In this document: positions 18,738-54,682 of the stretch, in pieces
Layout of the letters: each line of letters begins with the position of its first letter
How positions within the stretch are numbered: the stretch's first letter is position 1
Assembly: GCA_963707955.1 (NCBI GenBank)
Contig: OY970176.1
Location: forward strand, 2,080,001 to 2,144,000
Reading direction: 5' to 3'
DNA length: 64,000 bases
Origin: Candidatus Bathyarchaeota archaeon
GTDB lineage: Archaea > Thermoproteota > Bathyarchaeia > Bathyarchaeales > Bathycorpusculaceae
Notes under the pieces: generated by a model
What the model saw: only the letters and a program-made list of their open reading frames with translations
Database searches by the model: none
What the model was told of the DNA's origin: nothing
Program-made: the position numbers and the translations under genes

Positions 18738-18739
18738 CG

Positions 18740-24721: not shown

Positions 24722-24723
24722 CG

Positions 24724-27285: not shown

Positions 27286-27822
27286 AACGAATATAGGCGT
27301 CTAGTTCGGAAAGCTGGTATAAACACGGGTGGGAAGCAGGTACGTTTCCACTGCATGCGTAAGTTCCTCTGCGACCACCTCAGTAGTTTCATGTCCGAAA
27401 GTAAGTGGAAGCAGGTCGTTGGCAAGCAGATTTCCGAGGGCGCGTACGTCAGCCCGGACACTTTACGCGAAGACTACGCAAGAGCCATGGGAGAGACGAC
27501 GTTTACGAAGAGGGCTAGCGATGACATCCAAAAAATCGCCAAGCTAGAGGCATTAAAGCTCTTCGCTAAGTCATCAGGTGGCTTTACTGAGGCGGACATA
27601 GCGCGGATAAAGATGAGAAAGCCAACAGCCACTGCTCAAGAAGAGATTGACGAGCTTGAGAAAATGCTCGCGAAGTCTAAAGAAGAAGATTGCCCAGACG
27701 GCGAGCACTGCGCAGAGTTCTCCCAGATACCTGAGGCACAGCTCTTAACGCACCTCAAAGATGGCTGGGAAATAGTCAAAGAACTCAGCGACGGGCAAAT
27801 CATCGTCAAGCGCGTCTCGTGA
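27286..27822 (+). pseudogene. Tyrosine integrase C-terminal fragment, copy 2
   Basis: Identical to 21,302-21,838. Confidence 0.7.
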
Positions 27823-28082
27823 CCTCCCCCCTAGTATTTTCTCCGAGCTTCAAGAAGTCTCCCTGCCGAAGTTTAAACGTCCGCAGACAGAGCGCTAATA
27901 CTATAACATTAGCCGTCGGATTCTCCGTATGAACAACTGCCTGGGACATAAGACCCGCGCGCGAGGAGTATGGCAACAGTGCAGGGAATCTTTCAGGTTC
28001 CTGCGTTAGCTCGAACAGAGCTTTCCTCTATAACATTGTGTAGCAAAACTTAAAGCGCGCGCGGGTGGCTCTTTGAGCATAC

Positions 28083-31000
28083 GTGTACAGTTACAAGAGG
28101 GAGAGCAAATTGGTCAAGTACGTGGCTGTGTTATTGATTGTTTTGATCACCGTGTCTTTTCTTCCTTCAATCGGATTTGTTCAACCAGCTCATGCATTCT
28201 CATCTGTAGTGACTGTTACTGCAAATCCTCTTTGGACAGACACTGAACTTAGTGTGGAGATTGGTCAAAAAGTAGCGATCAACGCCTCAGGATCTTGGGA
28301 TTGGGGGGCAGGAGTAGTTGGTCCTGACGGCACAATCGGTACGGCTGGAGGTTCAGATTATTTCCTATATGATGCAAACCATGGAGAGCTAATAGCATTC
28401 GTTGGATCAGATCCATACCAAGGGCATTGGGGGGACGGCAGCTTTTTCCCACAGCACACTGGATACTGGAATGTAGGCAGCAGTGGCCAATTCATAAGCA
28501 ATAAGACCGGCGAACTCTGGCTTGGCTGCAATGACGCCGCTGTGACTAAGATCTCAGGTGACAACAGCGGCACAGTCACCGCATCGATAACTATTACATC
28601 GGGGCCCGTTGAAGTTTCAATCACGCCATCCAACGCAACAACGAGCATCGGGGGAGTGGCAACCTATGAGATCGGGATACAAAACTATGAGAATATCTCA
28701 GATACGTTTGCCATAAACATCCAAGGGGTTGACCCGTTATGGTGCTCATTGAGCCAACAAAATATGTCCCTTGCTGCCTACGGCGTTGCGAATGTAACAC
28801 TTGACTTGGTGCCTGCTGAAGATCCTGCCTATGCTGGAACTTACTGGTTCAACGTCACCGTTTCTGGTACTTGGGGTCAAGGAATGGCTACTGCAAACCT
28901 TGTTGTGACCAAAGCCCCATTAATGTACGGTTTGGCACCAGATGATAATTCTACTGTCGGATCGACAAACATTCTATTCTCTTGGGAGACATCTTCAAAC
29001 GCCAGCTCTGAAGTCTACATCAAACAGACAGGCGATTTGACTTTTAACCACATTCTTGACACTGCAGGAGAGAACCATTATGTATATGCGACCAACCTAA
29101 CCAGGAACGCAGACTACGTGTGGTATGCTTATAGCGAGACGGCTTATGGAAATGTCAGCAGTAACATGAGGGCTCTGCATGTTAGCAACGGCGTAAGCTT
29201 CACTCAGAGAAACTATACGTTTAATGTCCAACGAGACTATGCACAGAACGAGTCGATTTCTGTCGTGAACACAGATGTGGTGCCACATGACTTGCTTCTT
29301 GAAGCGACCAATCCGTACGACGACCTTATCGTGGGCTTCGTAGGTCCAGGCTCCGTCGATGAGAATGTCACTCTTCAGCCTGGAGAGACAAAACCATTAG
29401 ACTTTGAAGTTTTTGCGCAAGATGCAATGCAGCAGAGCTACACGTTTACAGTGAACCTGACAAACCTTGGACCTGAGCAAATAACTGACTACGCATTGGT
29501 CAATGTCAACGTGAGACAACCCAACCTAAATTTGACACTGACCGAAGATTCAACAGATCCCGTAACGTTGACGAAGACTATAACTGCAACCAATTATGGA
29601 GATCCAATAACCGACTTGTCCGTTAGCAGCAGCGACGGTCTAGTTGGTGAAGTCTCTTTTGAGCCAACAGTTTATCATGACGATCTTCCAACAGGAGGAT
29701 CTTTGACGTTCCAAGTTGTGCCCGTCCTCACAACCGATTTCACGGGCATTGAAGGTAACATAACAGCAACTGGTGCAGGACAAGTCATTGCGACTTTGCA
29801 GGTCAATTTCACCTTGCCCCCAGGCAAAAGCGTATACTCGGCCACCATACCTCAGGTAAGCATAGAATTCGACAACTACTACGACACAGACGATTCGCCG
29901 AATACTAATCCTCTGCTAGGTCAGCCGGTTGAATCGTACCTCGCAAATGGAACATTAATTTTTGCAAGCCAGATAATAGTAGACGTATTCCAAAATAATA
30001 CCCCGGCATCTGGCGCGAACGTTTCGCTCACTGTGTGGGATTCGACAGGCGCCGTCGCATCTCTTGAATACACTGTGACTGATTTTACTGGGAAAGCCTT
30101 GTTCAACGTCGTTGGTCCAGCAGGCAACTATTCCTATCAGGCTGAACTCGTTGACTATGGCTTAAAAACCGAGACGAGAAGCTTCTCAGTTAGCACGAGC
30201 CCCCTTTATGAGATTCGCTCCAACGGCATTACGTGGCTTGACGTGTCCGACGAGAGTTCAACGTACAATTTGACAGAAAATATGGGCACAGTCACACTCA
30301 CTGAAGCACCATTCACGTTCAGGGCGACGACGGCTACTACAGGAGAGAATGCTACTTTCGCCCTCGTGCTAAGATGGGACCTTGATGTGTTCAAGGATGT
30401 GTATATTCTGGGATCGATTCAAAACGACACACTCACTTTTCAAACAGACGGCATCCCTGCTGGAAACTTCACAGCCATAGTGTTCTACTATTCTCCAGCC
30501 ACGGGACTATCAGTTTCCCCAGCCATCAACGTAACAAACGCAGATTCAACGAGCATGTACATTCAGGGAAACTACACGTACTACACGCCATTTCCATTCA
30601 ACTCTACATATTTCATAAGGCTGGTTACCGAACGTTCGGTTTCATCCAGAGATCCTGCTGTAGCCTTTGACCTCGTCAACATAGAACCTGCTGATGCCAC
30701 GGGCTCACTTTACCAACTCGAGTACGTAATAGTGTCAAACGAGACGGTTCAGAAAGATTTTCAATTCTGCGTGAACACGACAGAAGGAGAATTGTACAAC
30801 ACGACTTTCCATTTGAATCTTGAACCTGCAACGCCTGTTGAAGTCAATTTCACGGTTCCTGTGGAGCTATCGAACGGGACGCTACAGGGAGAATTTGATG
30901 CGACCCTTTCAACAGACTCAGCTTCAGTCACGACCATGACCACGCCTCAATTGAGCTACATTTATGACTCAAGAATTTGGGTTGGTTCGGACAAGGGTAT

Positions 31001-32645
31001 CATGGACTATGTCTATATGGCACTTTTTCCCCCTTATGGTGCTTGGGAAGCCTACCAAAGTGCAAGCCCTGAGATGAAAGAAGTGTATACCTGTGGAGCA
31101 TTTGCAATAACAGGCTCAATGGGAAGAATTGTAGGAACAGCGAGTAGTTTCGTGGGCGCGGTAAGCGATGGATGGGCTTTTTTTACGAAAGCTGACGACA
31201 TAGAAAAGGGAATAATGGTTACCGAATACGGCGGAGCTGCGTTTGTGCTTGCATTAGGTGGCGGGGAGGCGGTTGGCGCTGCAGGATCTATACTTCTGGT
31301 CGGTGGCCTTGGGCAATGCGTATATGACGCATACAGAGTGGTTGCAAAAGGGGCAGAAGGGAGCATTGGATATTGTGTGTGCGTGCTGTCGAAAATAGGT
31401 ATGTGGTATTGTACTAACCGTCCTGTGGTGAGTGCTCAAGTCTGCATTGACCCTGCCTCTGTTGATGTGGTGCAGGCTGCTGCTGTTGTCAAATTCTCTC
31501 TTCCTTGGCCAATGGACACTTATAGACATCACAATGTCCGCTTGTACATAAATGGTGTTGAAATAGGCAACCTTACAAACACGATACCTCAGGGGTACTA
31601 TATTTTTCCGTTCAACAGCTCACTATTAAACTATGCGGCCAACGGTCCTTCAGAGAATACGATCACCATGAAAATGGATAATCTGAATGGCGGGCACTAT
31701 GTTGTCACATCAGATTGGGAGATAATTCTGCAATTAAAGCAAATTGCGCTCACGGTTGTAGCGTCAAATCAGACCGAGGCAGATAGCTTGGTGGAGCAGC
31801 TGAGCGGTGCAGTTGCTTGTTTGCCCGACTTTAACGTAGCTCCAGGCCTAGCTTTCTCGACATCCCAGCCAAGAGAAGGCCAAAGCATTACAATCACGGC
31901 AAACGTGTTGAACTTAGGAACTGTTGGAATGAGTTACGTTCCTGTCGACTTGTACGTTGACTCAGTGAAAGTCGAATCTGCAATTGTCAGCTTCCTTCCA
32001 ACATTTGCAAATCAAACTGTAGACTTTGACTGGATAGCGACCAGAGGCACACACAACGTTACGATAGTTGTCAACGGTGCTCAATTAATCCCAGAATCTG
32101 ATTACAGCAACAACCAGGCTCAAACAAGCATAACCGTACTTGCCGACGACGTGGCCATCGCAAACGTTACAAATGCTAAGAATGTTGTGGGCCAAGGATT
32201 CTCATTCAACGTGAGTGTTACGGCGGCAAACGATGGAGATTTCACAGAAACCTTCAATGTCACGGCATACGTCAACGCAACCATCATAGCATCAGAAAAC
32301 GTCAACTTACTAGCTGGCAACTCCACGACAGTCACCTTCGCATGGAACACTACTAGCTTTGTCTACGGCAACTACACCATAAGCGCTTACGCTTGGCCCG
32401 TCCCAGGCGAAATAAACATGGCAAACAATAACATGACTGGTGGCACGGTCTACGTGGGCATCCCAGGAGACATAGCCGGCGACGGCAGAGTTGACATGGG
32501 CGACATAGTCAGCCTATGCTTGGCTTTTGGTTCAACAGTGGGACAATCAAGGTGCGTTCCAAACTGTGACATAGACGGCAATGGCAGAGTCGACATGAGC
32601 GACATAATCATCGCCCTACGCAACTTCGGACAACACTACCCATAA
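28083..32645 (+). CDS. Large secreted protein with Ig-like/CARDB domains and a C-terminal dockerin
   Basis: Signal peptide ending PAHA; CARDB (IPESDYSNNQA); dockerin GDIAGDGRVDMGD...CDIDGNGRVDMSD...NFGQHYP; many NxS/T sequons. Confidence 0.85.
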   Translation: MYSYKRESKLVKYVAVLLIVLITVSFLPSIGFVQPAHAFSSVVTVTANPLWTDTELSVEIGQKVAINASGSWDWGAGVVGPDGTIGTAGGSDYFLYDANHGELIAFVGSDPYQGHWGDGSFFPQHTGYWNVGSSGQFISNKTGELWLGCNDAAVTKISGDNSGTVTASITITSGPVEVSITPSNATTSIGGVATYEIGIQNYENISDTFAINIQGVDPLWCSLSQQNMSLAAYGVANVTLDLVPAEDPAYAGTYWFNVTVSGTWGQGMATANLVVTKAPLMYGLAPDDNSTVGSTNILFSWETSSNASSEVYIKQTGDLTFNHILDTAGENHYVYATNLTRNADYVWYAYSETAYGNVSSNMRALHVSNGVSFTQRNYTFNVQRDYAQNESISVVNTDVVPHDLLLEATNPYDDLIVGFVGPGSVDENVTLQPGETKPLDFEVFAQDAMQQSYTFTVNLTNLGPEQITDYALVNVNVRQPNLNLTLTEDSTDPVTLTKTITATNYGDPITDLSVSSSDGLVGEVSFEPTVYHDDLPTGGSLTFQVVPVLTTDFTGIEGNITATGAGQVIATLQVNFTLPPGKSVYSATIPQVSIEFDNYYDTDDSPNTNPLLGQPVESYLANGTLIFASQIIVDVFQNNTPASGANVSLTVWDSTGAVASLEYTVTDFTGKALFNVVGPAGNYSYQAELVDYGLKTETRSFSVSTSPLYEIRSNGITWLDVSDESSTYNLTENMGTVTLTEAPFTFRATTATTGENATFALVLRWDLDVFKDVYILGSIQNDTLTFQTDGIPAGNFTAIVFYYSPATGLSVSPAINVTNADSTSMYIQGNYTYYTPFPFNSTYFIRLVTERSVSSRDPAVAFDLVNIEPADATGSLYQLEYVIVSNETVQKDFQFCVNTTEGELYNTTFHLNLEPATPVEVNFTVPVELSNGTLQGEFDATLSTDSASVTTMTTPQLSYIYDSRIWVGSDKGIMDYVYMALFPPYGAWEAYQSASPEMKEVYTCGAFAITGSMGRIVGTASSFVGAVSDGWAFFTKADDIEKGIMVTEYGGAAFVLALGGGEAVGAAGSILLVGGLGQCVYDAYRVVAKGAEGSIGYCVCVLSKIGMWYCTNRPVVSAQVCIDPASVDVVQAAAVVKFSLPWPMDTYRHHNVRLYINGVEIGNLTNTIPQGYYIFPFNSSLLNYAANGPSENTITMKMDNLNGGHYVVTSDWEIILQLKQIALTVVASNQTEADSLVEQLSGAVACLPDFNVAPGLAFSTSQPREGQSITITANVLNLGTVGMSYVPVDLYVDSVKVESAIVSFLPTFANQTVDFDWIATRGTHNVTIVVNGAQLIPESDYSNNQAQTSITVLADDVAIANVTNAKNVVGQGFSFNVSVTAANDGDFTETFNVTAYVNATIIASENVNLLAGNSTTVTFAWNTTSFVYGNYTISAYAWPVPGEINMANNNMTGGTVYVGIPGDIAGDGRVDMGDIVSLCLAFGSTVGQSRCVPNCDIDGNGRVDMSDIIIALRNFGQHYP

Positions 32646-39050: not shown

Positions 39051-42000
39051 GTGGCTTCTGTTAGGCATCAGCGTGGTAAGGTTTTTGGAATCGCGCTGTG
39101 CGTCGTGTTGGCTTTGTCGGTTTATCCTGGAATTGTGGGCGTGGTGAGTGAACTGTTTGGGACAGGCTTTATCGAATCGATGAGGCTGTCAAGCCAATCT
39201 GGCTCAAAGAGTGATGGTCGGTTTGCGATGGGCGACACCATCAACGTTTCAGCCGCGGTTACGCGTGGCAACTTCTACCAGTTGAACGTGTACGACAACA
39301 ACGACCGCTTGGTGTTCGAGGAGGACGGGACGGTGAAAGACTCCGACGTCAACGCCGTCGTGCCTATCCTCCCGCCGTCTTTCAACGCCAGCCGAACGTA
39401 TAGCTTGGTACTCGACGAGGGCGTCGTCAACACCCCTCTTCTCGGCGTGGGCGCCTACGACTCTTCCTCCACGGCCTTCACAGTCGTCCAGGGCCTGACG
39501 AACCTGAACCTAACGTCAGACTACAACGCGGTCACCCACGAGCTTCGAGCTGTGGCCCTCCTCACCACCAACGATTCCGTGCCCGTCGTAAACGAAACGG
39601 TAAGCCTCTACATGCAACCCGACTTGGACGTAGCCCTAACCAGCAGGGGATGGATCTGCTTAGGCCAGGTCTTGACGGACGCGAACGGTACAGCGCTGTT
39701 TGACGTTGCCGTGAACGCGAAAGGCGGCGATTACGGGCTACAAGCAAGGTTTGCCGGAGACAACAACTTCGAATCGTCCACTTCCCAGAACGCCACTCGG
39801 TTCGTCGAAGTCTCGCCAGTGCCGTTCCTACACATAGTGGGCGTCACGAAGGTCGAAAACGCAGTCACCACGCTCCTGCAAGTCACCGACAGCTACGGTT
39901 TTCCGCTCGGAGGAAGACTCATCTCGTACGAAGACTTGACGTCGGGCGGGCAACCCGTCTACGCCATCAGCAACGGTGCCGGCTACGCCACCGTAACCTT
40001 CAACGTCAACGCTTCCCTAAGCCTCGTCAACTCGAGACTCACAGTGCTGACAGACCCGTACACTTCGGAGCTTCGGGCCCTTGCAACGCTGAACCTGACG
40101 GGGTCAAACCCGTCTTTTGAAGCTGCATCTGGCACGAGCGCATCTGAAGGGCTGTTAATAGGCGCAGCAGCCGAAGCGCCCGCTGGCAACGCTTCCGGCG
40201 TGGACAATCCCACCTCTTCCGCGAGTGCGGACTTGAGCCAGACGGCCGTGAAATCTGCCGCCGCCCCCGCCGACACCGGTCTCCCCGACATTATCGTAAG
40301 CTTGAACGAGAACCCAGCAACGGCTGACCTGCCCGAAACATTCACCGTTAAGTTCTCCTCATACACATACCTCGGCACTGGCGTTTGGTTTAACTTTTAC
40401 GAGAATGATTCCAGTCACCTCGGGTCAGCCGGAGCCACCGAACACACCTACCGTTTTCACAACGATAATGGGGGATGGACTTTCATATACCAGTACACGG
40501 GGAGTCTCGTGTGGGAACCGGACTATTACGGAGGATGCTGGCTCTTCGTGAACGCCACGGACTCTAGTGGGCAGGATTTATTTGCTCAAGGTTCCAGCGA
40601 CTCGTTCAACATAAATCCTGCGCCCGTCAACCTGGTCGTTTATTATCCTGAAACGTTTTGCGGCGACACGTTGGACCTGTCTGTTGCCCTTTCCAGGTCG
40701 AGTGTTTACGAGCAGGATGATTCTGGCTTCTTCGTGTGCACCACGCTGGCGCCGAATGTCCAGTGGGCGGGCAACACGTACATGCTGGACTGCGGAGACA
40801 ACTCAACGCTGATTGACGTTTACGTGAACGGCTCCGAAACCAGCTTCGTTCCTAACCCTCAGGGTTTCTGCACGGTTCAGACTGATCTGGGTCCGTTGGG
40901 AAACGGCGGGTGTCTGAACGTGACCGCATTCGTCAACGGCAACAGCCGCTTCGAAGCGGTCACCGTGAACGACATTTTCAACTTCACAGAGACCAACGTT
41001 TCCGACGTGCCCTCCGCTGGCAGCGGCAACTTCGACCTGAACTATTCCCTCAGCGTCTCCAACGGTGCCGAGACAACCTACTATGACACGCAAAACTCTA
41101 TTAACGCCACCGCCTCCCTGTTTGACTCCCCAGTCTACAACGCTTCAGCCACGGTCACCACCGCCACACTCCTAAGCCGCTCAGCCACCAACAGCACCGG
41201 ATGGGTACAGATCCCCGCTGGCTGCAACTACCTCCGCGTACAGTCCGCCTGCCTCCTTCAACCCTACATGGCATCGCCACTAGCAGACGTTGATCATGAC
41301 GGATGGGTTAGCCCTCCTGGTGATAGACACGATGTAATGGAGCATGAGAACTCGACTATTGGCGATTTACTGTATGATTGGCGTTATGACCTCAACGGCG
41401 ACGGTGTGATAAACGATACTGACGTTGCCATAGTAAATGCAAGCGTTGGCCATTGTCTGGCGTATTTGGTTTCTGGGAATTCCACGGGTAACTATACTGC
41501 TAATTATGATTTTAGTGGTGTGGAAGTTGATTTTAACACGGGCCAGAACGCGTTTTTGGACAGTCTTGGCTTCGCAAGTGTTCCTGCTGGCGCCGAGTGG
41601 CTTAACATGTCGATTGGAGGCGTTGTAGAATTCTTTGCTGCTAATCCGGCTCAGAACGTTTCCACCGACAACGTCGGCGTTGCCAGCGTAGGTTGGTGCC
41701 CAGACACTGTGGGATTGGACGTTGTTCAGGCCAAACTGCCCTCAACGTTCAACGTGACTGTATCGAACTCGGCCTCTCTGCCTAATTACGCGGAGATGAA
41801 CGCTTCCTTGAACGTTGCCAACTACTTCTACGTGCTGAAGAGACCTGTGGACGTCACTGTCGACCTGCAGCCCAACGTCACCTATCCTATGAGCGAGTCT
41901 GGGAACTTCACTGCGAACGAATTAGACCAAGTTACGGGGCAACCAGTTCCAAATTTGCCCTTTAACCTGACAGTGACAAGCGTGAACGGTTGCGTTAATG

Positions 42001-43941
42001 AGTCGGGTTATCTGCATTTTGACGAGTCTGGAAACTATGACTCCCTCTGGGATTTCTGGGCAGGGGGAGGCGGTGTTTACAACGTTGTTTACAACGTGAC
42101 TGTTTCGTGGACAGAAGGGGAGTATAACGCGGGAGGTGTGTGTAGCAGTCTTTTCGATTTCAGGTGGCCCACGAACATCACGTCGCAAGATGGCAACGTG
42201 ACAAGCGCCGAAGCAAACGTTAACGAGACTCTCAGTTTTGATCTCATCAACAGCAACAGTTCTTCCGGGCTGTCGGGGGAGCTTGTCTTCTTCGATGTTA
42301 ACGGCAGTTCATACAACGACGGCACGTGCACGCCCTTCAACAGTGTCTATAACGGCACAACCTTGCAGAACGGAACCGTTTCGTTCACGTGGCCAGTGCC
42401 CAGCGGCAACGGGACGTACGCTGTGACTGCCGTGTTCAACGGTAACACCGACTATTGCCCCTGCCAAGCCTGCATGGCCGTCACCGTCAAAGCGGTGCCC
42501 CTGGCAGTCTTGTTCAGCGTCACGCCAGACGAGTTTGAGTCAGGAACCACCGTGCTGCTGAATGCCACCATCATAGACCCCTCCGCAGATGCGCTCTTCA
42601 CAAATCAAAACGTGAACGTCAACTTCACCAGCGTGTACTCTAACGGCACCATCTCGCTTCTCGGCACGAACTGCACCAACTTGACGGGCATGGCCTTTTG
42701 GAGCCTGAACTATACCTACAACAATGGGACCGCTTGTGCCTACAAGGCTGACATAGTCCCAGACTACGCGAACGGCAGCCTCCATCAAGGCATCGCCAGC
42801 AGCCCCGTCCAGCTGACTGTGGCCAACCCCACCGTGCTCCTATTGAACGTTTCCCGCAACAGCTGTTCCACAAACCACATCATAGAAGGCTGGCTGATGT
42901 GCAACGGCACTGGCGTCAAGGACGAAACCGTGACCACCACCGTTAACGGCCAATCTTTCCAGAACACGACAGACAAGAACGGCTACTTCAACTTGACCCT
43001 CAACCTCCAACCAGAATGCCCCAACGGGCAAACCGCCTCCCAGAACGTCACCTACACGATAACAGCCAGCTTCGCAGGCGACCAGCCCACCAACGCCACT
43101 GCCTACGACAACACGCTGGACGGAGAACAGTACCCAGCGTGCACAACCGTACAGTACGGCTACGAACCCAGCAGCAACACCACTATGCTAACCGTCACCC
43201 CACAGTCCACGCAGGCTATGACAGCGACAGAGACGCCTAAGCAGATGGAGCAACAAGCTGAAAGTAACGGGTCGTTGAAGGTGTGGGTGGGACCTGGCAG
43301 TGGATGGTTAACCTGGTTTAAGACACACGTCATGGTTCACGTTGACTGGCTTAACCTGACAATAAGCGCGTGGGTGGGCTTTCCACTGGGAGCCGGAGTA
43401 GACGAGTGCAACGGACTCGAGAACGCTTTCATCGACGCTTACGAGGGCGTTCCGGACAGTGCGATAAGTGTCACCCAGAGCGCAGTGATAAACGGTATAG
43501 CTACGGCAGCAGCGGCTCTCTGTGACAGGATGGGTGGCAACCATAGCCACCATGGGACCAGAAGATCCATTGTACTGGGTTGCTCTAGGAATCTATGTTG
43601 GTGCCATGTCGGCCTCCTTTGGATTGATTTATGCATTGGCGGACAGGTCTCTTTCGAGGTCGATTCTTCTGGGAGTGGGAGGCGCGTTAATAGGCTTCGT
43701 GATAGGCATATATAGCGGGAATTTCATAGCTAACTGGTGGATATCTGCCTCCTTGTCATTGTCCACTGGATCCACGCTTCAGATCGCGGCTGCCAAAGCA
43801 ACCGTTAACTATTTCGGTTCCTTTGGCATCAAGCAGGTGGCCTATGTGCTAGGAGTCGCGTCTTGGTTCGACGTTGCATTCACCATCGCCACCGGAGCGC
43901 TCGGCGCAGTGGCATTTGGTATGGGTGAGTCAGAGGGCTAG
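39051..43941 (+). CDS. Giant secreted Ig-like repeat protein with an internal dockerin and a hydrophobic C-terminal tip; frameshift at ~43,520
   Basis: Signal/anchor helix; beta-rich repeats; dockerin ADVDHDGWV...YDLNGDGVINDTD; the 43,522-43,941 frame continues the protein after a CT repeat. Confidence 0.8.
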
Positions 43942-43948
43942 CCGGATT

Positions 43949-44428
43949 ATGGACAGGAATCGTGGTGGAGGGCCTCCGCAAATCTACGGAATCATCTTCA
44001 TAATATTCGTTACAGTCATCAGTCTCTTGGGATCATGGCTTTCGCTGGTTGTGGTGAGGGATCTTGGGTTGAAAGAAGAGAAGGCCTTCCTTGCGTTTGC
44101 GTGGCGCGTGGTTTTCTTTAGTTTTCTATTCATCTTTTTCCCGATGTCGGTTGCCATAGAAATCATGTTTAGTCGATGGAAAAAGAGAAAGTTGCGTGTG
44201 CATAGCGTTCTCGCAGTCGCTCTATTGCTGTTCGTATACATGCTTGTCCTGTCTCTAATTGGGTTCATTTTTGAAGAAGTGTTTCCTAGTCTTTATTTCA
44301 CCAATGAACCTTTTCTCGGCCTGACTGGACTGGTGCTGGGCTTTATGGTGATGCTCCCCCTGTTGATCGTTGTGTTTACAGCTAGAGCCCGAAAAATCCA
44401 TGCTTACATTAGAAAAGCCTTCGAGTAA
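43949..44428 (+). CDS. Four-TM membrane protein (candidate immunity protein 1)
   Basis: ATG 7 nt after the tip stop codon; four hydrophobic helices with basic loops. Confidence 0.7.
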   Translation: MDRNRGGGPPQIYGIIFIIFVTVISLLGSWLSLVVVRDLGLKEEKAFLAFAWRVVFFSFLFIFFPMSVAIEIMFSRWKKRKLRVHSVLAVALLLFVYMLVLSLIGFIFEEVFPSLYFTNEPFLGLTGLVLGFMVMLPLLIVVFTARARKIHAYIRKAFE

Positions 44429-44560
44429 GAGGCATTATATAGCCGACGTAATTAGCTCGCACGGTTTCCTCATATCAGATCCACACGCCCTCTATTTACT
44501 ACGTGTGCGGGAAGAGAAGCGCGCGCTACAGAGAAAAGGGGATAGTACAAATTCACCCCA

Positions 44561-44589
44561 GTGGGTTTCAAGTCCCTGCGGGCCCGCCA
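44561..44589 (+). other. Isolated tRNA 3'-end fragment (att-like)
   Basis: gtgggtttcaagtccctgcgggcccgcca resembles T-arm + acceptor + G-CCA; no 5' half upstream. Confidence 0.6.
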
Positions 44590-44816
44590 CCCACGGAGCG
44601 CATTAGCGCCTCCGCGCTCGGTAATGCCCCTTTCTTTCTCCATTTTAAAGCTTGCTAGGCGTCTTAGAGCAAACCTTTAATTGGACTTTCGGAATCAAAA
44701 CGTGTCAAGTCCAACTAGCGCTTCATCTTACTCACAGGTTGCTCCATGGTTGTTGCTTTTATGATTAGCGCGCGCTCAACGGAATCAACTCTTCCTATGC
44801 GAATGAAGAGCCTATC

Positions 44817-46337
44817 TGCTTCGACGTCAACGGTAGCTACTTCGATGGCAGCACAGTCAACGTCTTTAACGCGGTCTACAACGGCACCACTGTACCACCA
44901 TTGCGCAAGGCCCAGTTGACTTGGTACGTGCCCTACGGCGAAGGAACGTACGATGTGACTGCTATGTTCAGCGGTGACAACTACGATTGCCCCTGCCAAA
45001 CCAGCATCGTCGCCAACGCCAGCGCGGTGCCCCTCAGAATCCTGTTCAGCGTCACCCCGGACAATTTTGAAAACGGAACCACCGTGCTGCTGAACGCCAC
45101 CATCATCGACCCCTCCACGGGAGCGCCCTTCACAAGCCAGAGTGTGAACGTCAACTTCTACAACGTGGACTCTAACGGCGTTCAGCAGAAACTAGGCACG
45201 AACTCCACCGCCGGCGGCATGGCCTTCTGGAGCACGACCTACACGAGCAACGGAACCGCATACGCCTACAAGGCCGACATAAACGCGGACTCCGTGAGCG
45301 GTGTCCTCCGTCAAGGCATCGCCAGCAGCCCCGTCCAGCTCACCGTAGGCAACCCAACCGTGCTCCTGCTGAACGTTTCCCGAGCCAACTCTTCCACAAA
45401 CCACACGATTGAGAGCCAACTGCTGAGCGATGGCACGGGCGTCTCGAACGAGACCGTGACCATCACCGTTAACGGCCAATCTTTTCAGAACAAGACAGAC
45501 CAGAACGGCTACTTCAACTTAACCATCGACCTCGAGCCCGAATGCCACAACGGCACTACCGCGTACCAGAACGTTACCTACACGATAACAGCCAGCTTCG
45601 CAGGCGACGTGCCCACCAACGCCACCGCCTACGACAACGCGCTCGACGGCACCAACTACACAGCATGCACAACCGTTCAGTACGTTTACGAGCCCAGCAC
45701 CAACAGCACAATACTGACCGTAACCCCACAATCAACATTGACGGCACTGCTGACCGAGACGCCTCAAGAGATGCAGAAACAAGCAGAGCAGAATGGGACG
45801 CTCAAGGTCAAAAACCAGTGGAGCTGGTGGTATCCATGGTACAGAGTCCATTATCAGTTTATCCCAAATGGTACTGTTGAATACGATTATGGCGTCAGTC
45901 CGCTACCTTTTGGAAATACGCTAGCGTACACCAAATATATGAATAATACCGTGGTCAACTTCGTGCTGAACGCCAACTTGGCCATACTTAGCGCGATTAC
46001 TCTCTCTGAATATCAAGGATACATCATCAGTATGCTTGGGCCCGCGGGATTTCTAGGTGCACTCATAATCTCTCTTACTACAAAGCTGGGCGCATTGGCC
46101 GCAAACTGGAACTCAGTCGGGGGACTTGAGAGCATTTTGGCTGGCAGCGCAGTTTCTATGGGAGTGGGCCTACTGAAAAATTTAGGATCAATCATCGAGA
46201 TAGTGAGCGAAACGATGGGCATGGCTGAAGTTGGTTTCGGAACCCTGTACTGCCTGCTCAGCGTGCCTATAAATATAGCATTTTGGATAGTTATCTTTGA
46301 CAGGCTCAGTCAATTGGGTGCTGGAGTGAGGTTCTGA
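44817..46337 (+). pseudogene. Orphan cassette 2: 5'-truncated paralog of the giant protein's last ~450 aa with a different C-terminal tip
   Basis: Aligns from FDVNGSY... (frameshift at ~44,895) through TITASFAGD...CTTVQY...ETPQEM, then diverges; no signal peptide. Confidence 0.8.
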
Positions 46338-46340
46338 GCG

Positions 46341-47111
46341 TTGGACAATTTGCATGCGAAAGGCTGGCATTGGACTAAACAAGTAGTCGGGTTGTTGCTT
46401 ATTGCAGCCGGAATACTTGTGTTCTATTTTGCCGCCGCGGTCATTGCTTCAACCAGCCTGACTGGTGCCCTTCTCTCTGCTTGGGTGGCTTCGGGGTTGA
46501 TTTGCGCAGGAAGTTTCCTTGTTATTCAGTTTGACATGCGTCGTTATTTACGATCGGTGCTTCTTGTCTTCGTCGTTCTGCTTGGGTGGACCATGGTTTT
46601 GCTGTTGCAGCTTCCGGGCAACTTTCAGATATTCATGTTCGCGTTTACAAGTTTCATTTTCGGCTTGTTCTTGTACTACTGGAAAAAGAAACCTGTAATT
46701 TCATGGAGATCGCCAAGCGTTCACAGACGCCTATTAGCCATTGCTGGAGCTGTTCTCCTTGTGCCCAGCTTCACACTATTCATTATGTTTGTAAGCATCG
46801 TGGATGACTTGGGCTTGTTTGTTGGTTGGCTTTCCATGTTGCCTGCAAGTTTAGGCCTCTTGGTAGGTTTTCAACTAGTTAGAGGAAAGAGGCTCAAAGA
46901 TGCGGTATTAGCTTGGCTTGTCTTGGATGCCATTATGCTGTACCCGTTCCTCGTTGTTTTGCCTACGGCATTCAGCATGCCGATAGCGTACCAGATCGTC
47001 GTGGAGGCTTTGATTATCGTCCTGACAGTGGTAGCGTTTGTGGTCGGGGTGCATAGCTATCGCAAAAGGTATAGCAGGCGTATGTTGAAGCAGGTAGCGC
47101 GCGCGTGGTAG
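46341..47111 (+). CDS. Polytopic (~8 TM) membrane protein (candidate immunity protein 2)
   Basis: Starts 3 nt after the cassette 2 stop codon; multiple TM helices. Confidence 0.7.
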   Translation: MDNLHAKGWHWTKQVVGLLLIAAGILVFYFAAAVIASTSLTGALLSAWVASGLICAGSFLVIQFDMRRYLRSVLLVFVVLLGWTMVLLLQLPGNFQIFMFAFTSFIFGLFLYYWKKKPVISWRSPSVHRRLLAIAGAVLLVPSFTLFIMFVSIVDDLGLFVGWLSMLPASLGLLVGFQLVRGKRLKDAVLAWLVLDAIMLYPFLVVLPTAFSMPIAYQIVVEALIIVLTVVAFVVGVHSYRKRYSRRMLKQVARAW

Positions 47112-47263
47112 TGCGTCGTGTGTCGTGTGTGTTCGCCTTGGACTTGCCCGCTCTCTCTTAGGGTTAACGGCATTAAGGTAAGGTGGCTGAGACGAGCGTG
47201 GGCGGCTTGTGGGAAGGCGGCTTCAGTTTCATTCGACTTCCCAGCTATAGAAGACAACGCGAT

Positions 47264-47856
47264 AACGTAACAGTAACAGCCAGCTTCGCAGGCGATCACC
47301 CCACAAACGCCACCGCCTACGACAACACGCTAGACGGAGAACAGTACCCAGCGTGCACAACCGTCCAGTAGGGCTACGAACCCAGCAGCAACAGCACAAC
47401 GTTAACCGTGACTCCACAGTCTACTCAGGCGGCGATGCTCGCAGAGACGCCTCAACAGATTCAGCAGAACGCAACAAACAGCGGGTGGCTTAGTGTCTAC
47501 AGCCAGTGGAGCTGGTGGTACCCATGGTTCAGATTTCACTTTAAGTTTACTCCAGACGGCGCCTCGCATTTGACATAGGAATTTCCGCTTTGCCCTTAGG
47601 CAACGCAGTGAAAGTTGGGTCAGCCATGACAGGTGTAACTGGTTTGTTGTCGAAAGTGATGGTTTCCATTACCAGTGCAATAGCTTTGTTTGACAGGCTT
47701 GGGAATATTGTTGCTGTCGCTGGTCCTGAAGCATTTGCTGGTGCGCTTATGGTTTCATTTACGGCCAAGTTATCGGCATTAATCGCAAACTATAATTCGG
47801 CTGACGGGCTAATCAGTGCATTTTTTGGCACTGCTGCTCGGATTCTACGTTTATAG
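47264..47856 (+). pseudogene. Orphan cassette 3 (degraded) with a third tip variant
   Basis: VTASFAGDHPTNATAYDNTLDGEQYPACTTVQ*GYEPSSN...WSWWYPWFRFH, then frameshifted into LPLGN...GPEAFAGALMVSFTAKL. Confidence 0.8.
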
Positions 47857-48025
47857 CAAGCACAGACGAGCTAAACTACGCAACGCGACATCAAGCTGAT
47901 AGAGGAACACAGCAATCTATGAGCGCGCGCACGCCCAAAATAGGACAGAAACCTAGAGCCAATTGCTGACTGAGACGCAACCTGTAAAGGTCTCGGCTTT
48001 TAAGGGCACGCGCATTTGGGAAAGG

Positions 48026-52123: not shown

Positions 52124-54682
52124 TTGAGAAAGGAGAAAGGAAAATTGAAAAAGGAAACTGCATCAGCAATAGTGATAACGCTGCTCATCGCAAGCATGCT
52201 CTTTTCGGCGACTAACTTCGTGAAAGGTCAGACGGACACGCCTGACCTAGAGGTCTCTCTGAGCTCTTTCAGCCCGTCCATAATTAACGGCACGTATAAC
52301 CATCTCACGAATGGAAGTTCGACGGTTCTAAACGCCACCGTAACCAACGTGGGCAATGCCAGCGCGTCTAGCGTAACCTTGCAGCTTCTGGTCAACGGCA
52401 CCGTGACTCTAACCGCTGTAACACCGACGTTGGATATCAACTGCACCTTCTGGGCTGCCTACTTCTGGAACCCGACGGATTATGTGCCACCTGTAACTGA
52501 CTACAACCTGACTGTTTATGCCCTGCCTGTGACTAACGAGACAAACAACAACATCACGAGGTGGATCCGAGTTTGTCCGAACCAACCTCCTACAGCGATC
52601 TTCAACATGACCTGGTCACCACCAAATCCGCCCTTGGGACCAGTCGAAAATCAGACCGTCACTTTCGACGCCTCCAACAGCTACAACCCGCCTTCGACAC
52701 CTTCTGACTGGAGTACCATCGTCAATTACACGTGGAATTTTGGAGACGGCCCCAGCGTGAACTACTCTTACCCCACTACGACTCACAAGTACACGAATTG
52801 GAGGAACTACACCGTAACCCTCACATTGGTTAACAATGAGAACCTAACCAGCTTGCCCGCATCGCAAAACATATCGGTCTACGCTCGTCCAATAGCCAAT
52901 TTCACAGTACTAGGCAAGCTCTATGTCAATAAAAACCTGACCTTTAATGCCTCAACGAGCATCGACCCCGACAACAACGCGACTTCCACAAAGGGCATTG
53001 CCAGCTACAACTGGGACTTCGGAGACGGCAACACAACAACAGGCTGGCCTAACGCGACCATACTTCACCCGTACAATGCAGAGGGTAACTACACCGTTAC
53101 TCTCAATGTCACCGACTTCGACGGCCTAGTCAGCGACGTAGTAAACGAGTCGGTGTATATCGGTTCAGGTCAACCCATCGCCTTCTTTACACCGCCTCAC
53201 TCACCGTGTTACGTTGGTGATAACTTGACCTTCGACGCCACAAACAGCCTTGATCTCGACAATCCCACTGGTCCCACACGCGGTATCGCCAACTACACCT
53301 GGAACTTCAACGATAGCACGCCTATAATCACCGTATACGTCCCCACCATCTTACACGCCTTTCAAAGCCCCGGAAACTACAATGTGAATCTGACCGTGAC
53401 CGACTCTGATCAGGGACTAACCAGCTGGACAAACGCTAATGTGAGTGTTTCCTACCAGGTCTTTTTAAACGCGACGGACAGTGTAACCGGAAGCCCGAAC
53501 ATCGCGCACAACCCTGGCGACTATTTTAATATCAGCATAACAGTCACAAACGTGACAGACCTATTTCAATATGAACTCAATTTGACATGGCCAGGCACCA
53601 AGTCATATCCTATATTTGACAGTGACCCAGTTGCTGTGAGTGGCGGTTTCTTGGCACAGAATGCCACTGAAGACTTCGTGCCCACACCTTCAAAATATCA
53701 AGGTTACGTTTACATAACAAGTACACGTCTTGGTACCTTGAATGGAGTGAACGGCAGCGGAACTCTGGCCATAATAACCCTTCACGTCAACGGTACCATG
53801 ACGGGAAACTGTACCTTCCAAATAGTTTCCTGCTTGCTACAGAATTCTACGTTTGCCAGCATTAATTGCACACTGGGAGACGGTCACTTCTTCACTACTA
53901 AACCAGTTGCAAACTTCACTTATTTGCCTCTTACACCCACGGTAAACACGGAAGTATACTTTAACGCGTCAAACAGTTACTGCCCAGACGGTGGAAATAT
54001 CACTTCCTACCAATGGGACTTTGGTGATGGCACGAGTGACACTGGACCCATTGTAAGCCACAATTACACTAGCTCAGAGCCATTCAACGTGAACCTAACC
54101 GTTACGGACAGCCAGTCACTTCTTACGTGGTCGATGAACAAAACGGTGGAGGTTAATCCAGGCCAAGTTTTCATCACCGACATTGAACCCGACGAGCTTT
54201 GGTTTAACAAAGCTTTGAATATGTTCCAGACTGCGGGGGCACTGCCCATGAACGTGACAGTGACGAACCCGGAAAATACTACTGTGACCTTCAACGTCAC
54301 CGTGTTCTTTGGCGGCCTTAACGTTACGGAGCAGCTTGTTACCGATCTTCCGCCTGGCGTATGGACCCTAAATCTAACCTGTTCCATAACGGGTATTAAC
54401 CCGGGCAACTACTCTATCCGCGCTCAACCGTCATGCACAAACGGAACCAATTCGTGGACCGGACCTATGTGCACTAATGGTACAGTCAGGGTTTGCTTGG
54501 CAAGCGACGTTAACGGCGATTATAAAGTTAACATGGGCGACGTAATGCTCATACTCGCGGCGTTCGGGTCGAAAGCTGGGATGCAAAAATATAATGCCAT
54601 CTGCGACCTGAACGGTGATGGTAAAGTTGACATGGGCGACATAGTCATCGCCTTAAGCAACTTCGGACACCACTACCCATAA
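52124..54682 (+). CDS. Secreted protein with four PKD domains, a cohesin-like domain and a C-terminal dockerin
   Basis: W(N/D)FGDG repeats; FNISITVTNVTDLFQYE...GSGTLAIITLHV; SDVNGDYKVNMGD...CDLNGDGKVDMGD...NFGHHYP. Confidence 0.85.
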   Translation: MRKEKGKLKKETASAIVITLLIASMLFSATNFVKGQTDTPDLEVSLSSFSPSIINGTYNHLTNGSSTVLNATVTNVGNASASSVTLQLLVNGTVTLTAVTPTLDINCTFWAAYFWNPTDYVPPVTDYNLTVYALPVTNETNNNITRWIRVCPNQPPTAIFNMTWSPPNPPLGPVENQTVTFDASNSYNPPSTPSDWSTIVNYTWNFGDGPSVNYSYPTTTHKYTNWRNYTVTLTLVNNENLTSLPASQNISVYARPIANFTVLGKLYVNKNLTFNASTSIDPDNNATSTKGIASYNWDFGDGNTTTGWPNATILHPYNAEGNYTVTLNVTDFDGLVSDVVNESVYIGSGQPIAFFTPPHSPCYVGDNLTFDATNSLDLDNPTGPTRGIANYTWNFNDSTPIITVYVPTILHAFQSPGNYNVNLTVTDSDQGLTSWTNANVSVSYQVFLNATDSVTGSPNIAHNPGDYFNISITVTNVTDLFQYELNLTWPGTKSYPIFDSDPVAVSGGFLAQNATEDFVPTPSKYQGYVYITSTRLGTLNGVNGSGTLAIITLHVNGTMTGNCTFQIVSCLLQNSTFASINCTLGDGHFFTTKPVANFTYLPLTPTVNTEVYFNASNSYCPDGGNITSYQWDFGDGTSDTGPIVSHNYTSSEPFNVNLTVTDSQSLLTWSMNKTVEVNPGQVFITDIEPDELWFNKALNMFQTAGALPMNVTVTNPENTTVTFNVTVFFGGLNVTEQLVTDLPPGVWTLNLTCSITGINPGNYSIRAQPSCTNGTNSWTGPMCTNGTVRVCLASDVNGDYKVNMGDVMLILAAFGSKAGMQKYNAICDLNGDGKVDMGDIVIALSNFGHHYP

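What the first reader, a model, noticed from the sequence alone, without database searches (positions are those of the whole stretch)
39051..47856. Candidate new archaeal polymorphic toxin system: giant dockerin-bearing carrier with swappable hydrophobic tips and orphan cassettes
Seen: (1) a ~1,630-aa secreted Ig-repeat protein ending in a conserved block (TASFAGDxPTNATAYDNxLDGxxYxACTTVQYxYEPSxN...TVTPQST...ETPxxM) and then a ~220-aa hydrophobic helical tip; (2) a small TM gene directly after it; (3) a 5'-truncated copy of the pre-tip region with a different tip, directly followed by a different TM gene; (4) a third, decayed copy with another tip. The pre-tip DNA is highly similar across copies, giving a recombination substrate. 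Known: this is the architecture of Rhs/CDI/MafB loci, and pore-forming colicins have TM immunity proteins. Inference: contact-dependent, membrane-attacking antagonism or kin recognition on a carrier in which I see no RHS/YD, Hint or haemagglutinin motifs.
Basis: partly seen in the sequence, partly recalled or inferred. Interest (0 to 1): 0.9.

Follow-up and report, generated by a model that had tools for sequence, protein, structure and literature searches.

The report
Swappable membrane-tip cassettes in Bathyarchaeia
A giant surface protein of an uncultured sediment archaeon ends in an exchangeable hydrophobic piece that always travels with its own small membrane protein, the layout of bacterial contact-dependent toxin-immunity systems, but built from parts with no known relatives.

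Summary
The window carries a 1,629-aa Ig-repeat protein. Its apparent frameshift at 43520 is an assembly error (contigs of three runs lack that base). After it come a 4-TM gene, a 5'-truncated copy with a different tip and a different TM gene, and a decayed third copy. A second such locus lies 1.9 Mb away.

The family is found only in Bathyarchaeia (12 of 12 genome loci) and is patchy (8 of 400 class genomes). Across 76 loci, 80 of 92 distinct complete tips are followed directly by a complete 3-or-more-TM ORF. The tips are one homologous family. At thresholds I chose, they fall into four main classes that map one-to-one onto partner classes. Within classes, tip and partner similarity correlate (Mantel r 0.53-0.78), while the adjacent pre-tip block is decoupled. 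Near-identical contigs switch tip class 27-38 nt after the block.

No Pfam, NCBIfam or PDB relative exists for tip or partner. AlphaFold gives a small beta sheet plus a six-helix bundle with no colicin-like or other clear fold match.

Best reading (about 0.5): a membrane-acting polymorphic effector with a cognate immunity protein. Toxicity, binding and topology are untested. It is a new variant of a known kind.

The parts
39051..43941 (+). Carrier A1: giant Ig-repeat surface protein, 1,629 aa once the surplus base at 43520 is left out
   Evidence: ORFs. Contigs of 3 runs leave out one base at 43520. Length and absence of internal stops. Weak Big_3_5, MG4 and Dockerin_1 matches. 80-92% identical to carrier B1 over residues 1-950, collapsing after about residue 1400.
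39051..39149 (+). N-terminal basic stretch plus about 22 hydrophobic residues (signal peptide or signal anchor)
   Evidence: Sequence. The same pattern is seen in long homologs. Whether it is cleaved was not determined.
41283..41513 (+). Central dockerin-like Ca-binding module (DVDHDG... / DLNGDGVINDTD)
   Evidence: Pfam Dockerin_1 at 19.4 bits, below the 22.9 cut-off. Above the cut-off at the same position in 5 of 15 long homologs. Two cohesin ORFs above the cut-off lie elsewhere in the genome.
43068..43247 (+). Pre-tip block of A1 (end of the last Ig-like domain and linker: SFAGD...ACTTVQY...TVTPQST...ETPKQM)
   Evidence: Found in 141 of 150 listed homologs. DNA is 88-95% identical among copies.
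43248..43941 (+). Tip A1, class 3, about 230 aa; its frame is broken in the window only by the assembly error at 43520
   Evidence: Best matches are all class-3 tips, up to 48% identity. Assembly error shown.
43949..44428 (+). Partner of A1: 159-aa, roughly 4-TM protein of the class-3 partner family
   Evidence: Its best hit is the partner of the same cassette that best matches tip A1 (43% identity). No Pfam, NCBIfam, PADLOC or PHROG family.
44769..45593 (+). Orphan A2, 5'-truncated Ig part (in-frame stop at 44766; longest ORF starts at TTG 44901); no signal peptide
   Evidence: Its DNA is 91-98% identical to carrier B1 of the other locus but only 66-91% identical to A1.
45594..45773 (+). Pre-tip block of A2
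45774..46337 (+). Tip A2, class 0, 187 aa: linker helix, 4-stranded sheet with the WSWWYPWYRVH motif, six-helix bundle
   Evidence: AlphaFold2 model with mean pLDDT 79.1 and pTM 0.65. Class assignment.
46341..47111 (+). Partner of A2: 256 aa, two fused class-0 partner repeats (residues 13-130 and 123-256)
47228..47856 (+). Orphan A3, decayed: block 47282-47461 with TAG at 47369, frameshift near 47560-47580, class-0 tip remnant, no partner gene

Best explanation
This is a lineage-specific polymorphic effector-immunity module of Bathyarchaeia.

Shown:
- A Sec-type N-terminus, an Ig-domain stalk rich in N-X-S/T sequons, and a central dockerin-like module (plus CBM96 in most homologs) end in a conserved last-Ig block.
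- That block is followed by a 185-257-aa hydrophobic tip, and a small 3-5-TM gene follows directly.
- Tip and partner are inherited and diverge as one cassette.
- Cassettes are exchanged, added and lost by recombination at the conserved block, leaving 5'-truncated orphans downstream.

Inferred:
- The tip is a membrane-inserting domain that damages or marks the membrane of a neighbouring cell reached by the stalk.
- The partner binds the tip within the bilayer and neutralises it in the producer and in kin that carry the same cassette.
- Cells are thereby sorted into compatible and incompatible groups.

Neither toxicity nor binding has been tested.
For: Architecture.
- 80 of 92 distinct complete tips are followed by a complete 3-or-more-TM ORF starting within 60 nt after the tip stop or overlapping it. 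The distance from tip stop to partner start is -4 nt in 15 pairs, 0 in 13 and +1 in 9.
- Loci hold 1-5 blocks each: 28, 24, 14, 6 and 4 loci of 76.
- 16 tips sit on carriers with 1,000 aa or more upstream. 55 are orphans with under 300 aa to an upstream stop.

Co-variation.
- Tip classes (30, 28, 12, 9, 1) map one-to-one onto partner classes (30; 21+2+2+2+1; 12; 9; 1).
- In no pair of cassettes, of 3,160, were the partners alike (normalised score 0.15 or more) without the tips also being alike.
- Within-class Mantel r for tip vs partner is 0.61, 0.78, 0.53 and 0.64. Of 2,000 permutations, 0, 0, 0 and 1 reach these values. For pre-tip vs partner, r is -0.05, 0.18, -0.05 and 0.03.
- In this genome, A1, A2 and B1 each pair a tip with a partner of the matching class.

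Exchange.
- L091 and L094 are 99.7% identical over 4,857 nt up to 27 nt after a block. Then L091 has a class-3 cassette and L094 a class-2 cassette.
- L096 and L098 are 99.9% identical over 6,227 nt up to 38 nt after a block, and L098 has one extra cassette.
- In L056 vs L059, identity starts 37 nt before a block end.
- The two loci of this genome are mosaic with respect to each other.

Accessory character.
- 8 of 400 other class genomes have a match, and the same-genus genome has none.
- Extra tandem partner genes occur without a tip of their own. 48 of 152 partner-like ORFs are unpaired, some because of contig ends or broken tips.

Partner properties.
- The partner has no invariant residue (mean column identity 17%), so it is more likely a binder than an enzyme.
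- It diverges faster than the tip (median normalised score 0.07-0.19 vs 0.20-0.42). CDI ionophore-immunity pairs show the same pattern (PMC11630599, abstract and section 8 read).
- Its loops are short, so any contact with the tip must lie in the membrane (inference).
Against: - All tips are one domain family of nearly constant size. They are not an assortment of toxin domains.
- There is no sequence or fold match to colicin pore domains or to any solved structure. Foldseek gives 0 hits at E<=1e-3 for two models. The best VIA Z is 7.1, to designed helix bundles.
- The tip has 3-4 TM-length hydrophobic helices. These may simply stop transfer in the producer's own membrane, which would make the tip an anchor.
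- No protease, release motif of a known kind, secretion or delivery gene recurs in the flanks or in the carriers.
- 43 of 56 orphans have an in-frame ATG upstream of the block, so they may be expressed on their own and not be silent cassettes.
- The partner-only loci seen carry stop codons.
- No RNA run holds the locus, and the contigs laid show no swapped form in the population.
- My class thresholds and my TM predictor are crude choices of my own.
- Many metagenome contigs come from related samples.
Confidence: 0.5

Rival explanations
1. Non-lethal kin recognition or adhesion by lock and key. The tip of one cell inserts beside the partner protein in a neighbour's membrane. Only matching tip-partner pairs hold cells together or permit exchange. 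Mismatch causes no killing.
For: The evidence is the same as for the best explanation: cassette architecture, one-to-one class matching and within-class co-variation, and recombinational turnover. No recognisable toxin fold was found. The stalk carries a dockerin-like module, and most homologs also carry CBM96, as adhesins do.
Against: Recognition systems do not need extra partner genes without tips. A strongly hydrophobic helical bundle is an unusual recognition surface. Nothing here separates this reading from toxicity.
Confidence: 0.2
2. Variable C-terminal membrane anchor with a dedicated membrane partner, with no role in conflict. The tip holds the stalk in the producer's own membrane and the small protein stabilises or assembles it. 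The orphans are relics of duplication and decay of a fast-evolving surface-protein gene.
For: Tips are homologous and of constant size with 3-4 TM-length helices. There are about no N-X-S/T sequons in the last 140 aa, against 2.2-4.0 per 100 aa in the body (8 long homologs). No release or delivery parts were found. Terminal cassettes are often decayed: 11 of 26 arrays end in a truncated block.
Against: - An anchor gives no reason for a recombination hotspot exactly at the block-tip junction.
- It gives no reason for arrays that mix up to four classes or for tandem extra partners.
- It does not explain the very fast divergence of the partner.
- It does not explain presence in only 8 of 400 related genomes.
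Confidence: 0.2
3. Variation to escape viruses or other agents that use the protein as a receptor, by cassette-based antigenic variation.
For: Silent-cassette arrays next to an expressed surface gene resemble antigenic-variation loci (recalled: pilE/pilS, vlsE). Turnover between close relatives is seen.
Against: The variable part is the hydrophobic, probably membrane-embedded end. The long exposed stalk is 80-92% conserved between the two paralogs. A co-varying membrane partner is not explained. There is no relative in viral contigs and no PADLOC or PHROG match.
Confidence: 0.05

Closest known systems
CDI ionophore toxins and their CdiI immunity proteins (CdiA-CT of E. coli; PMC11630599, abstract and section 8 read)
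   Same: - A long surface stalk ends in a polymorphic C-terminal region made of a variable N-terminal part plus a helical bundle able to span a membrane.
- The toxins are homologous within groups.
- Immunity clustering mirrors toxin clustering.
- Immunity diverges faster than the toxin.
   Different: - There is no TPS domain, haemagglutinin repeats, CdiB or VENN motif.
- The stalk is made of Ig-like domains with a dockerin-like module.
- The host is an archaeon with one membrane.
- The bundle has six predicted helices after a small beta sheet.
- Toxicity is not shown here.
Rhs / CDI orphan toxin-immunity modules (PMC3150448, search listing and abstract start only) and polymorphic toxin systems as defined by Zhang et al. 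2012 (PMC3482391, abstract and passages)
   Same: - C-terminal variation arises by recombination with stand-alone cassettes.
- 5'-truncated orphans keep a stretch of the conserved upstream sequence.
- The partner gene lies directly downstream.
- Distribution is patchy.
   Different: - There are no RHS/YD repeats, no Hint or other known pre-toxin or release domain, no known toxin domain and no known immunity family.
- All tips are one domain family.
Pore-forming colicins with 3- or 4-TM immunity proteins (recalled, not read here)
   Same: A C-terminal helical domain of about 200 aa acts in the membrane. Homologous toxins fall into classes, each with its own small polytopic immunity protein.
   Different: No sequence or fold match was found. 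The tip starts with a beta sheet and an aromatic WSWWYPWYRLH motif. The partner is co-directional and translationally coupled.
VARTIG module of Thermococcales (PMC8416519; abstract, sections 11 and 13 and passages read)
   Same: - It is archaeal.
- A large Ig-domain protein is followed by shorter genes that align with its C-terminal region.
- Particular membrane proteins follow particular subfamilies.
- It resembles polymorphic toxin systems, but no recognisable toxin was found.
   Different: In VARTIG the C-terminal Ig domain itself is hypervariable. Here the last Ig domain is the conserved recombination block, and a hydrophobic helical domain varies. The authors found no counterpart outside Thermococcales by their searches. 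I found no sequence relation in what I read. Their supplements were not looked at.
TspA-TsaI of Staphylococcus aureus (PMC7456083, search listing only) and IdsD-IdsE of Proteus (recalled)
   Same: A membrane-acting or membrane-embedded polymorphic C-terminal domain is matched by polytopic membrane partner genes that can occur in several copies.
   Different: Delivery differs (T7SS, T6SS). There is no homology. They are bacterial.

Membership tests
Polymorphic toxin system (sense of Zhang et al. 2012) | Multidomain secreted protein with a variable C-terminal domain behind a conserved region | tested here: met
   A1 vs B1 are 80-92% identical, falling to near-random identity after the block. Tips fall into 4 or more classes.
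Polymorphic toxin system (sense of Zhang et al. 2012) | C-terminal domain replaced by recombination with stand-alone cassettes | tested here: met
   55 orphans among 92 distinct complete tips. Near-identical contigs switch or gain cassettes 27-38 nt after the block.
Polymorphic toxin system (sense of Zhang et al. 2012) | Cognate gene directly downstream that co-varies with the C-terminal domain | tested here: met
   80 of 92 tips have a partner ORF. Class mapping is one-to-one. Mantel r is 0.53-0.78.
Polymorphic toxin system (sense of Zhang et al. 2012) | The C-terminal domain is toxic and the downstream protein protects | not testable with these tools
Polymorphic toxin system (sense of Zhang et al. 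2012) | Known toxin, pre-toxin/release or immunity domain | tested here: not met
   No Pfam or NCBIfam family for tip or partner. No protease, Hint or DUF4157 in 16 carriers.
CDI (CdiA/CdiB two-partner secretion) | TPS domain, haemagglutinin/FHA repeats, CdiB transporter | tested here: not met
   None at E<=0.1 in A1. None in 16 carriers at E<=0.01. No recurrent flank gene.
Rhs | RHS/YD repeats and the PxxxxDPxGL boundary | tested here: not met
   No RHS family. The boundary here is ...ETPxxM...WSWWYPWYRLH.
Pore-forming colicin domain | Ten-helix globular bundle with a buried hydrophobic hairpin, detectable by fold | tested here: inconclusive
   Foldseek gives 0 hits at E<=1e-3 for two models. 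The VIA wide best Z is 7.1, to generic bundles. A missing match does not show that the folds differ.
VARTIG | Hypervariable C-terminal Ig domain; Thermococcales | tested here: not met
   The last Ig block is the most conserved part. All 12 genome loci are Bathyarchaeia.
Dockerin type I | Pfam PF00404 above its cut-off; paired Ca-binding loops | tested here: inconclusive
   A1 scores 19.4 bits and B1 18.1 bits against a 22.9 cut-off. 5 of 15 homologs are above the cut-off at the same position. Both loops are visible in the sequence.
Sortase-type C-terminal sorting signals (PGF-CTERM and the like) | Short tripartite C-terminal signal and a cognate sortase | tested here: not met
   The tip is 185-257 aa with six predicted helices. 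There is no NCBIfam match. The partner has no invariant residue.

The most novel reading that the evidence does not exclude
Bathyarchaeia, among the most abundant sediment archaea, wage or police cell-to-cell contacts with a home-grown weapon. It is a roughly 50-nm glycosylated Ig stalk, docked by a dockerin, whose exchangeable six-helix tip inserts into a neighbour's membrane. Only cells holding the matching 4-TM partner are spared. This would be an archaeal contact-dependent antagonism or kin-discrimination system that evolved independently of the bacterial ones, with a new membrane-active fold.
Probability: 0.4. Interest if true: 0.88.

Novelty: new variant of a known kind. Interest (0 to 1): 0.77.

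Why it matters
Classical polymorphic toxin systems are reported as rare in archaea and as borrowed from bacteria (PMC3482391, passages read). Predicted archaeal ones centre on nucleases (PMC8416519 and PMC6393860, passages read).

Here a whole system (carrier, boundary motif, tip and partner) has no known family and was found only in Bathyarchaeia. It nevertheless shows the full population signature of a toxin-immunity or self-recognition module, including natural cassette swaps.

It gives a concrete, testable handle on how uncultured sediment archaea interact. It also offers about 240 sequence clusters of a possibly new membrane-active domain, each with a matched neutraliser.

Tried and rejected
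- Complex prediction (tip plus partner) was not available, so binding is untested.
- No RNA holder was listed for the locus.
- The joints seen when contigs were laid are cross-mapping of the paralogous locus B. They are not tip swaps, and contigs cannot show rare variants.
- A profile search of PDB sequences gave only two hits at E about 0.1, to designed proteins.
- PADLOC and PHROGs gave nothing.
- Viral contigs gave no relative.
- The apparent tip-partner fusion in L050 is a tip whose C-terminus is disrupted after 'VPIN' and reads on into the partner. It is most likely a frameshift, not a natural fusion.
- I considered that the partner might be a sortase-like enzyme. I rejected this because no residue is invariant.
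- I considered that the frameshift in A1 marks a pseudogene or programmed shift. I rejected this because of the contigs.
- Arrays do not regularly end in a truncated block (11 of 26), so I make no claim about a fixed 3' repeat.
- Makarova et al. 2019 (mBio) is not held. I know it only through citations in PMC8416519. It, and the supplements of PMC8416519 that I did not open, could list related loci.
- Literature searches for Bathyarchaeota/Bathyarchaeia together with polymorphic toxin, contact-dependent, or cohesin/dockerin found no description of this family.

Full report
WHAT IS IN THE WINDOW

The region 39051-47856 holds, on the + strand, these elements in order:
- a giant ORF
- a small membrane-protein gene
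- a 5'-truncated copy of the giant gene's 3' part, carrying a different end
- a second, different membrane-protein gene
- a decayed third copy

In the window the giant ORF stops at 43715, and its hydrophobic end continues in the +1 frame to 43941. I laid the Logan contigs of four freshwater-sediment runs of one study on 42800-47900. The contigs of X1, X2 and X3 that cover the place all leave out one base at 43520 (35.1 of 35.1, 4.31 of 4.31 and 7.43 of 7.43 depth). X4 does not cover it, and X1 may be the source sample. Without that base the gene is 4,890 nt and 1,629 aa with no internal stop.

The conserved block (SFAGD...ACTTVQY...TVTPQST...ETPxxM) lies at 43068-43247, 45594-45773 and 47282-47461. 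The third copy has a TAG at 47369 and a frameshift near 47560-47580.

The window is part of a 2.35-Mb single-contig genome. A second locus at 222-229 kb has an intact 1,594-aa carrier (B1), a TM gene and a decayed orphan.

THE CARRIER

A1 and B1 are 80-92% identical over residues 1-950, 50-75% over 950-1390, and near-random after about 1400.

Pfam gives only weak Ig-like matches and a dockerin match below the cut-off (19.4 vs 22.9 bits). No RHS, Hint or haemagglutinin family appears at E<=0.1.

Of 15 long homologs, 9 have a dockerin match at E<=0.01 at the same central position, and 5 of these are above the cut-off. 11 have a CBM96 module about 150-200 residues further on, which A1 and B1 do not show. 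None has a protease or another known release domain.

The genome encodes two cohesin-bearing ORFs above the cut-off. Both end in dockerin-like repeats.

The N-termini carry basic residues followed by about 20-25 hydrophobic residues. I cannot tell whether this is a signal peptide or an anchor.

In 8 long homologs, N-X-S/T sequons run at 2.2-4.0 per 100 aa in the body and at about zero in the last 140 aa.

THE FAMILY

A phmmer search with the A2 block plus tip, against 1.84 billion representative proteins, gave 241 proteins at E<=1e-3, 149 at <=1e-10 and 29 at <=1e-30.
- Of the 150 listed, 141 have the block by an HMM built from this genome's five copies.
- Where the protein is complete, the tail after the block is almost always 185-257 aa.
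- Proteins are either about 1,450-1,900 aa long or a few hundred aa long.

The 12 loci found in species-representative genomes of Bacteria and Archaea are all titled Bathyarchaeia or Bathyarchaeota. None was found in viral contigs.

In 400 other genomes of the class, 8 have a match. These are 6 of 103 in the window's family, 2 of 11 in a second family of the same order, and none elsewhere. The one same-genus genome (89% complete) has none. Variable repeated loci assemble poorly in MAGs, so this figure may understate presence.

Sources name the relatives 'hypothetical protein', with no Pfam domain.

TIP AND PARTNER TRAVEL TOGETHER

I searched 76 loci for the block: the window, locus B, 12 MAG loci and 62 metagenome loci. 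Together with duplicate loci, 181 blocks were found.

I collapsed identical tails. I left out A1 because of the assembly error, open-ended tails and tails under 150 aa. This left 92 distinct complete tips.
- 80 are followed by a complete ORF with 3 or more hydrophobic segments (by my crude Kyte-Doolittle rule), starting within 60 nt after the tip stop or overlapping it.
- Of the other 12, 6 have no such ORF (several at contig ends; one is the L050 read-through).
- 2 are cut by a contig end.
- 4 have ORFs with fewer predicted segments. One of these is B1's partner, which by homology belongs to the class-1 partners.

The distance from tip stop to partner start is -4 nt in 15 pairs, 0 in 13 and +1 in 9.

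16 tips sit on carriers with 1,000 aa or more upstream. 55 are orphans with under 300 aa to an in-frame stop. 21 are undecided.

Over all 3,160 pairs of cassettes, tip similarity tracks partner similarity (Spearman 0.50). Block similarity tracks neither partner similarity (0.016) nor tip similarity (0.04). In no pair were the partners alike (normalised score 0.15 or more) without the tips also being alike.

With thresholds I chose (E 1e-20 on the distal tail, E 1e-3 on partners), tips fall into classes of 30, 28, 12, 9 and 1. Partners fall into 30; 21+2+2+2+1; 12; 9; 1. The mapping is strictly one-to-one. Other thresholds give other numbers of clusters.

Within classes, after dropping near-duplicates, Mantel r for tip vs partner is 0.61, 0.78, 0.53 and 0.64. 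Of 2,000 permutations, 0, 0, 0 and 1 reach these values. For block vs partner, r is -0.05, 0.18, -0.05 and 0.03.

Adjacent genes share history in any case. The telling point is that the block, which is even closer to the tip, does not share it.

In this genome:
- A1 is class 3 with a class-3 partner. The best-matching cassette is the same for tip and partner (48% and 43% identity).
- A2 is class 0 with a doubled class-0 partner.
- A3 is a decayed class 0.
- B1 is class 1 with a class-1 partner.

EXCHANGE IS SEEN IN NATURE

- L091 and L094 are 99.7% identical over 4,857 nt. Identity ends 27 nt after a block end. After that, L091 has a class-3 tip and partner and L094 a class-2 pair. At the other end, the same cassette is fused to a long carrier in L091 and is an orphan behind another cassette in L094.
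- L096 and L098 are 99.9% identical over 6,227 nt up to 38 nt after a block. L098 holds one extra class-0 cassette between two blocks.
- In L056 vs L059, identity starts 37 nt before a block end.
- L066 has an extra cassette of about 1.3 kb relative to L067.

Within this genome, A2's Ig part is 91-98% identical to B1 at the other locus but only 66-91% identical to the neighbouring A1. The block of A1 is 93-95% identical to those of A3 and B2.

Loci hold 1 to 5 blocks and mix classes, for example L091 with classes 2, 1, 0, 3 and L100 with classes 0, 3, 1, 4.

WHAT THE PARTS LOOK LIKE

Tips:
- All tips are one family. 98 tails form one single-linkage cluster.
- Class profiles match each other at 98-99.9% probability over the first 80-170 residues, and the last 40-100 residues differ.
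- After the block come a linker (KTPEQMQxEAExxGWL), an aromatic motif (EFSWWYPWYRLH, with an invariant Pro and a near-invariant His), a D.G..PLP.G stretch, and then 3-4 hydrophobic segments.
- AlphaFold2 on 44 class-0 sequences gives mean pLDDT 79.1 and pTM 0.65. The model has a linker helix, a four-stranded sheet and six main helices of 13-27 residues.
- Class 1 (B1, 34 sequences) gives the same plan at mean pLDDT 71.4.
- Foldseek against the PDB finds nothing at E<=1e-3 for either model.
- A search of 48,161 representative chains gives at best Z 7.1, to designed helix bundles. No chain reaches Z 8. For helical bundles this means only a common arrangement.
- No colicin-type domain appeared. 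This does not exclude one.

Partners:
- Class-0 partners are 113-160 aa (two are doubled to about 255 aa).
- They have four TM helices, short loops and a basic C-terminal tail.
- They have no invariant residue, and mean column identity is 17%.
- Partner classes 1 and 3 may be related (92.7% probability). The others show no likeness to each other or to the tips.

Neither tip nor partner matches Pfam, NCBIfam, PADLOC, PHROGs or PDB sequences. Apart from carriers, orphans and partners, no gene family recurs in the flanks.

OTHER POINTS THAT BEAR ON FUNCTION

- Of 152 partner-like ORFs, 103 follow a complete tip. 48 do not and do not overlap a tip frame. These include contig-edge and broken-tip cases and many tandem extra copies.
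- The genome has a third locus with two tandem class-0 partner repeats, one with a TGA inside, and no block or tip within 3 kb. One other genome shows a partner-like gene with a TAG and no tip nearby.
- 43 of 56 orphans with complete tips have an in-frame ATG upstream of the block, some only 3-12 codons before it. Orphans are therefore not clearly silent.

READING

Shown: there is a cassette system in which a hydrophobic C-terminal domain and a cognate small membrane protein are inherited together and diversify together. They are shuffled by recombination at a conserved block, on a giant surface protein. The system is confined to part of the Bathyarchaeia as far as searched.

Inferred: the tip acts in a membrane and the partner neutralises or recognises it there.

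The pattern matches what is described for CDI ionophore toxins. There, toxin clustering is mirrored by immunity clustering, only cognate immunity protects, and immunity diverges faster than toxin (PMC11630599, abstract and section 8). It also matches the general definition of polymorphic toxin systems (PMC3482391).

I put about 0.5 on a membrane-acting effector with an immunity protein. I put 0.2 on non-lethal kin recognition, 0.2 on a variable anchor with an assembly partner, and the rest on other readings.

NOVELTY

Archaeal polymorphic toxin systems have been predicted before. They are described as few, bacterial in origin and centred on nucleases (PMC3482391; PMC6393860; PMC8416519 citing Makarova et al. 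2019, which I could not read).

VARTIG of Thermococcales is the nearest archaeal analogue. In VARTIG the last Ig domain varies, whereas here it is the conserved block (PMC8416519, sections 11 and 13).

My searches found no description of this family.

I class it as a new variant of a known kind. The logic is known, and every part is new.

Noticed in passing
window 17006-28976: Two exact tandem copies of a 5,984-nt unit (17006-22992 = 22990-28976). The duplication doubles the oxaloacetate-decarboxylase-like, biotin-carrier and methylmalonyl-CoA mutase genes. It also leaves a 338-aa N-terminal stump (22099-23115) of the 1,520-aa CARDB/dockerin protein at 28083-32645. It is either a recent duplication or an assembly artefact.
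   Followed up: partly
window 43520 and 44560: Single bases that public contigs leave out. At 43520 all covering contigs of three runs lack the base. At 44560 (intergenic) only part of the contigs lack it. The assembly probably has other single-base errors that mimic frameshifts.
   Followed up: yes
window 28083-32645 and 52124-54682; G000:C1:2212769-2214406 and 473795-476782: Further large surface proteins end in dockerin modules: CARDB plus dockerin, and four PKD domains plus dockerin. Two cohesin-bearing ORFs elsewhere in the genome themselves end in dockerin-like repeats. This organism seems to have a cohesin-dockerin surface network.
   Followed up: partly
G000:C1:2298650-2299453 (- strand), about 172 kb after the window's finding: Two tandem class-0 partner-like repeats, one with an internal TGA, with no pre-tip block or tip within 3 kb. 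This is a partner-only locus.
   Followed up: partly
window 46341-47111; L049:2367-3122: The partner of A2 is a head-to-tail fusion of two class-0 partner units (256 aa). One metagenome cassette has the same doubled form (252 aa).
   Followed up: partly
long homologs P0009, P0022, P0025, P0029, P0038, P0042, P0065, P0070, P0091, P0097 and others: 11 of 15 long carriers have a CBM96 carbohydrate-binding module (E 1e-11 to 1e-25) shortly after the dockerin. It was not detected in the window's carrier or in B1.
   Followed up: no
L050:6079 onward: A class-0 tip whose last helix is disrupted reads on into a doubled partner, giving a 447-aa tail with 8 hydrophobic segments. This is probably a frameshift, not a true fusion.
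   Followed up: partly
window 1638-5958: An 864-aa DNA methylase (N6_N4_Mtase) is followed by two overlapping ORFs of 405 and 171 aa with no Pfam family. The region has lower G+C (0.42). It may be a restriction-modification or other defence island.
   Followed up: no
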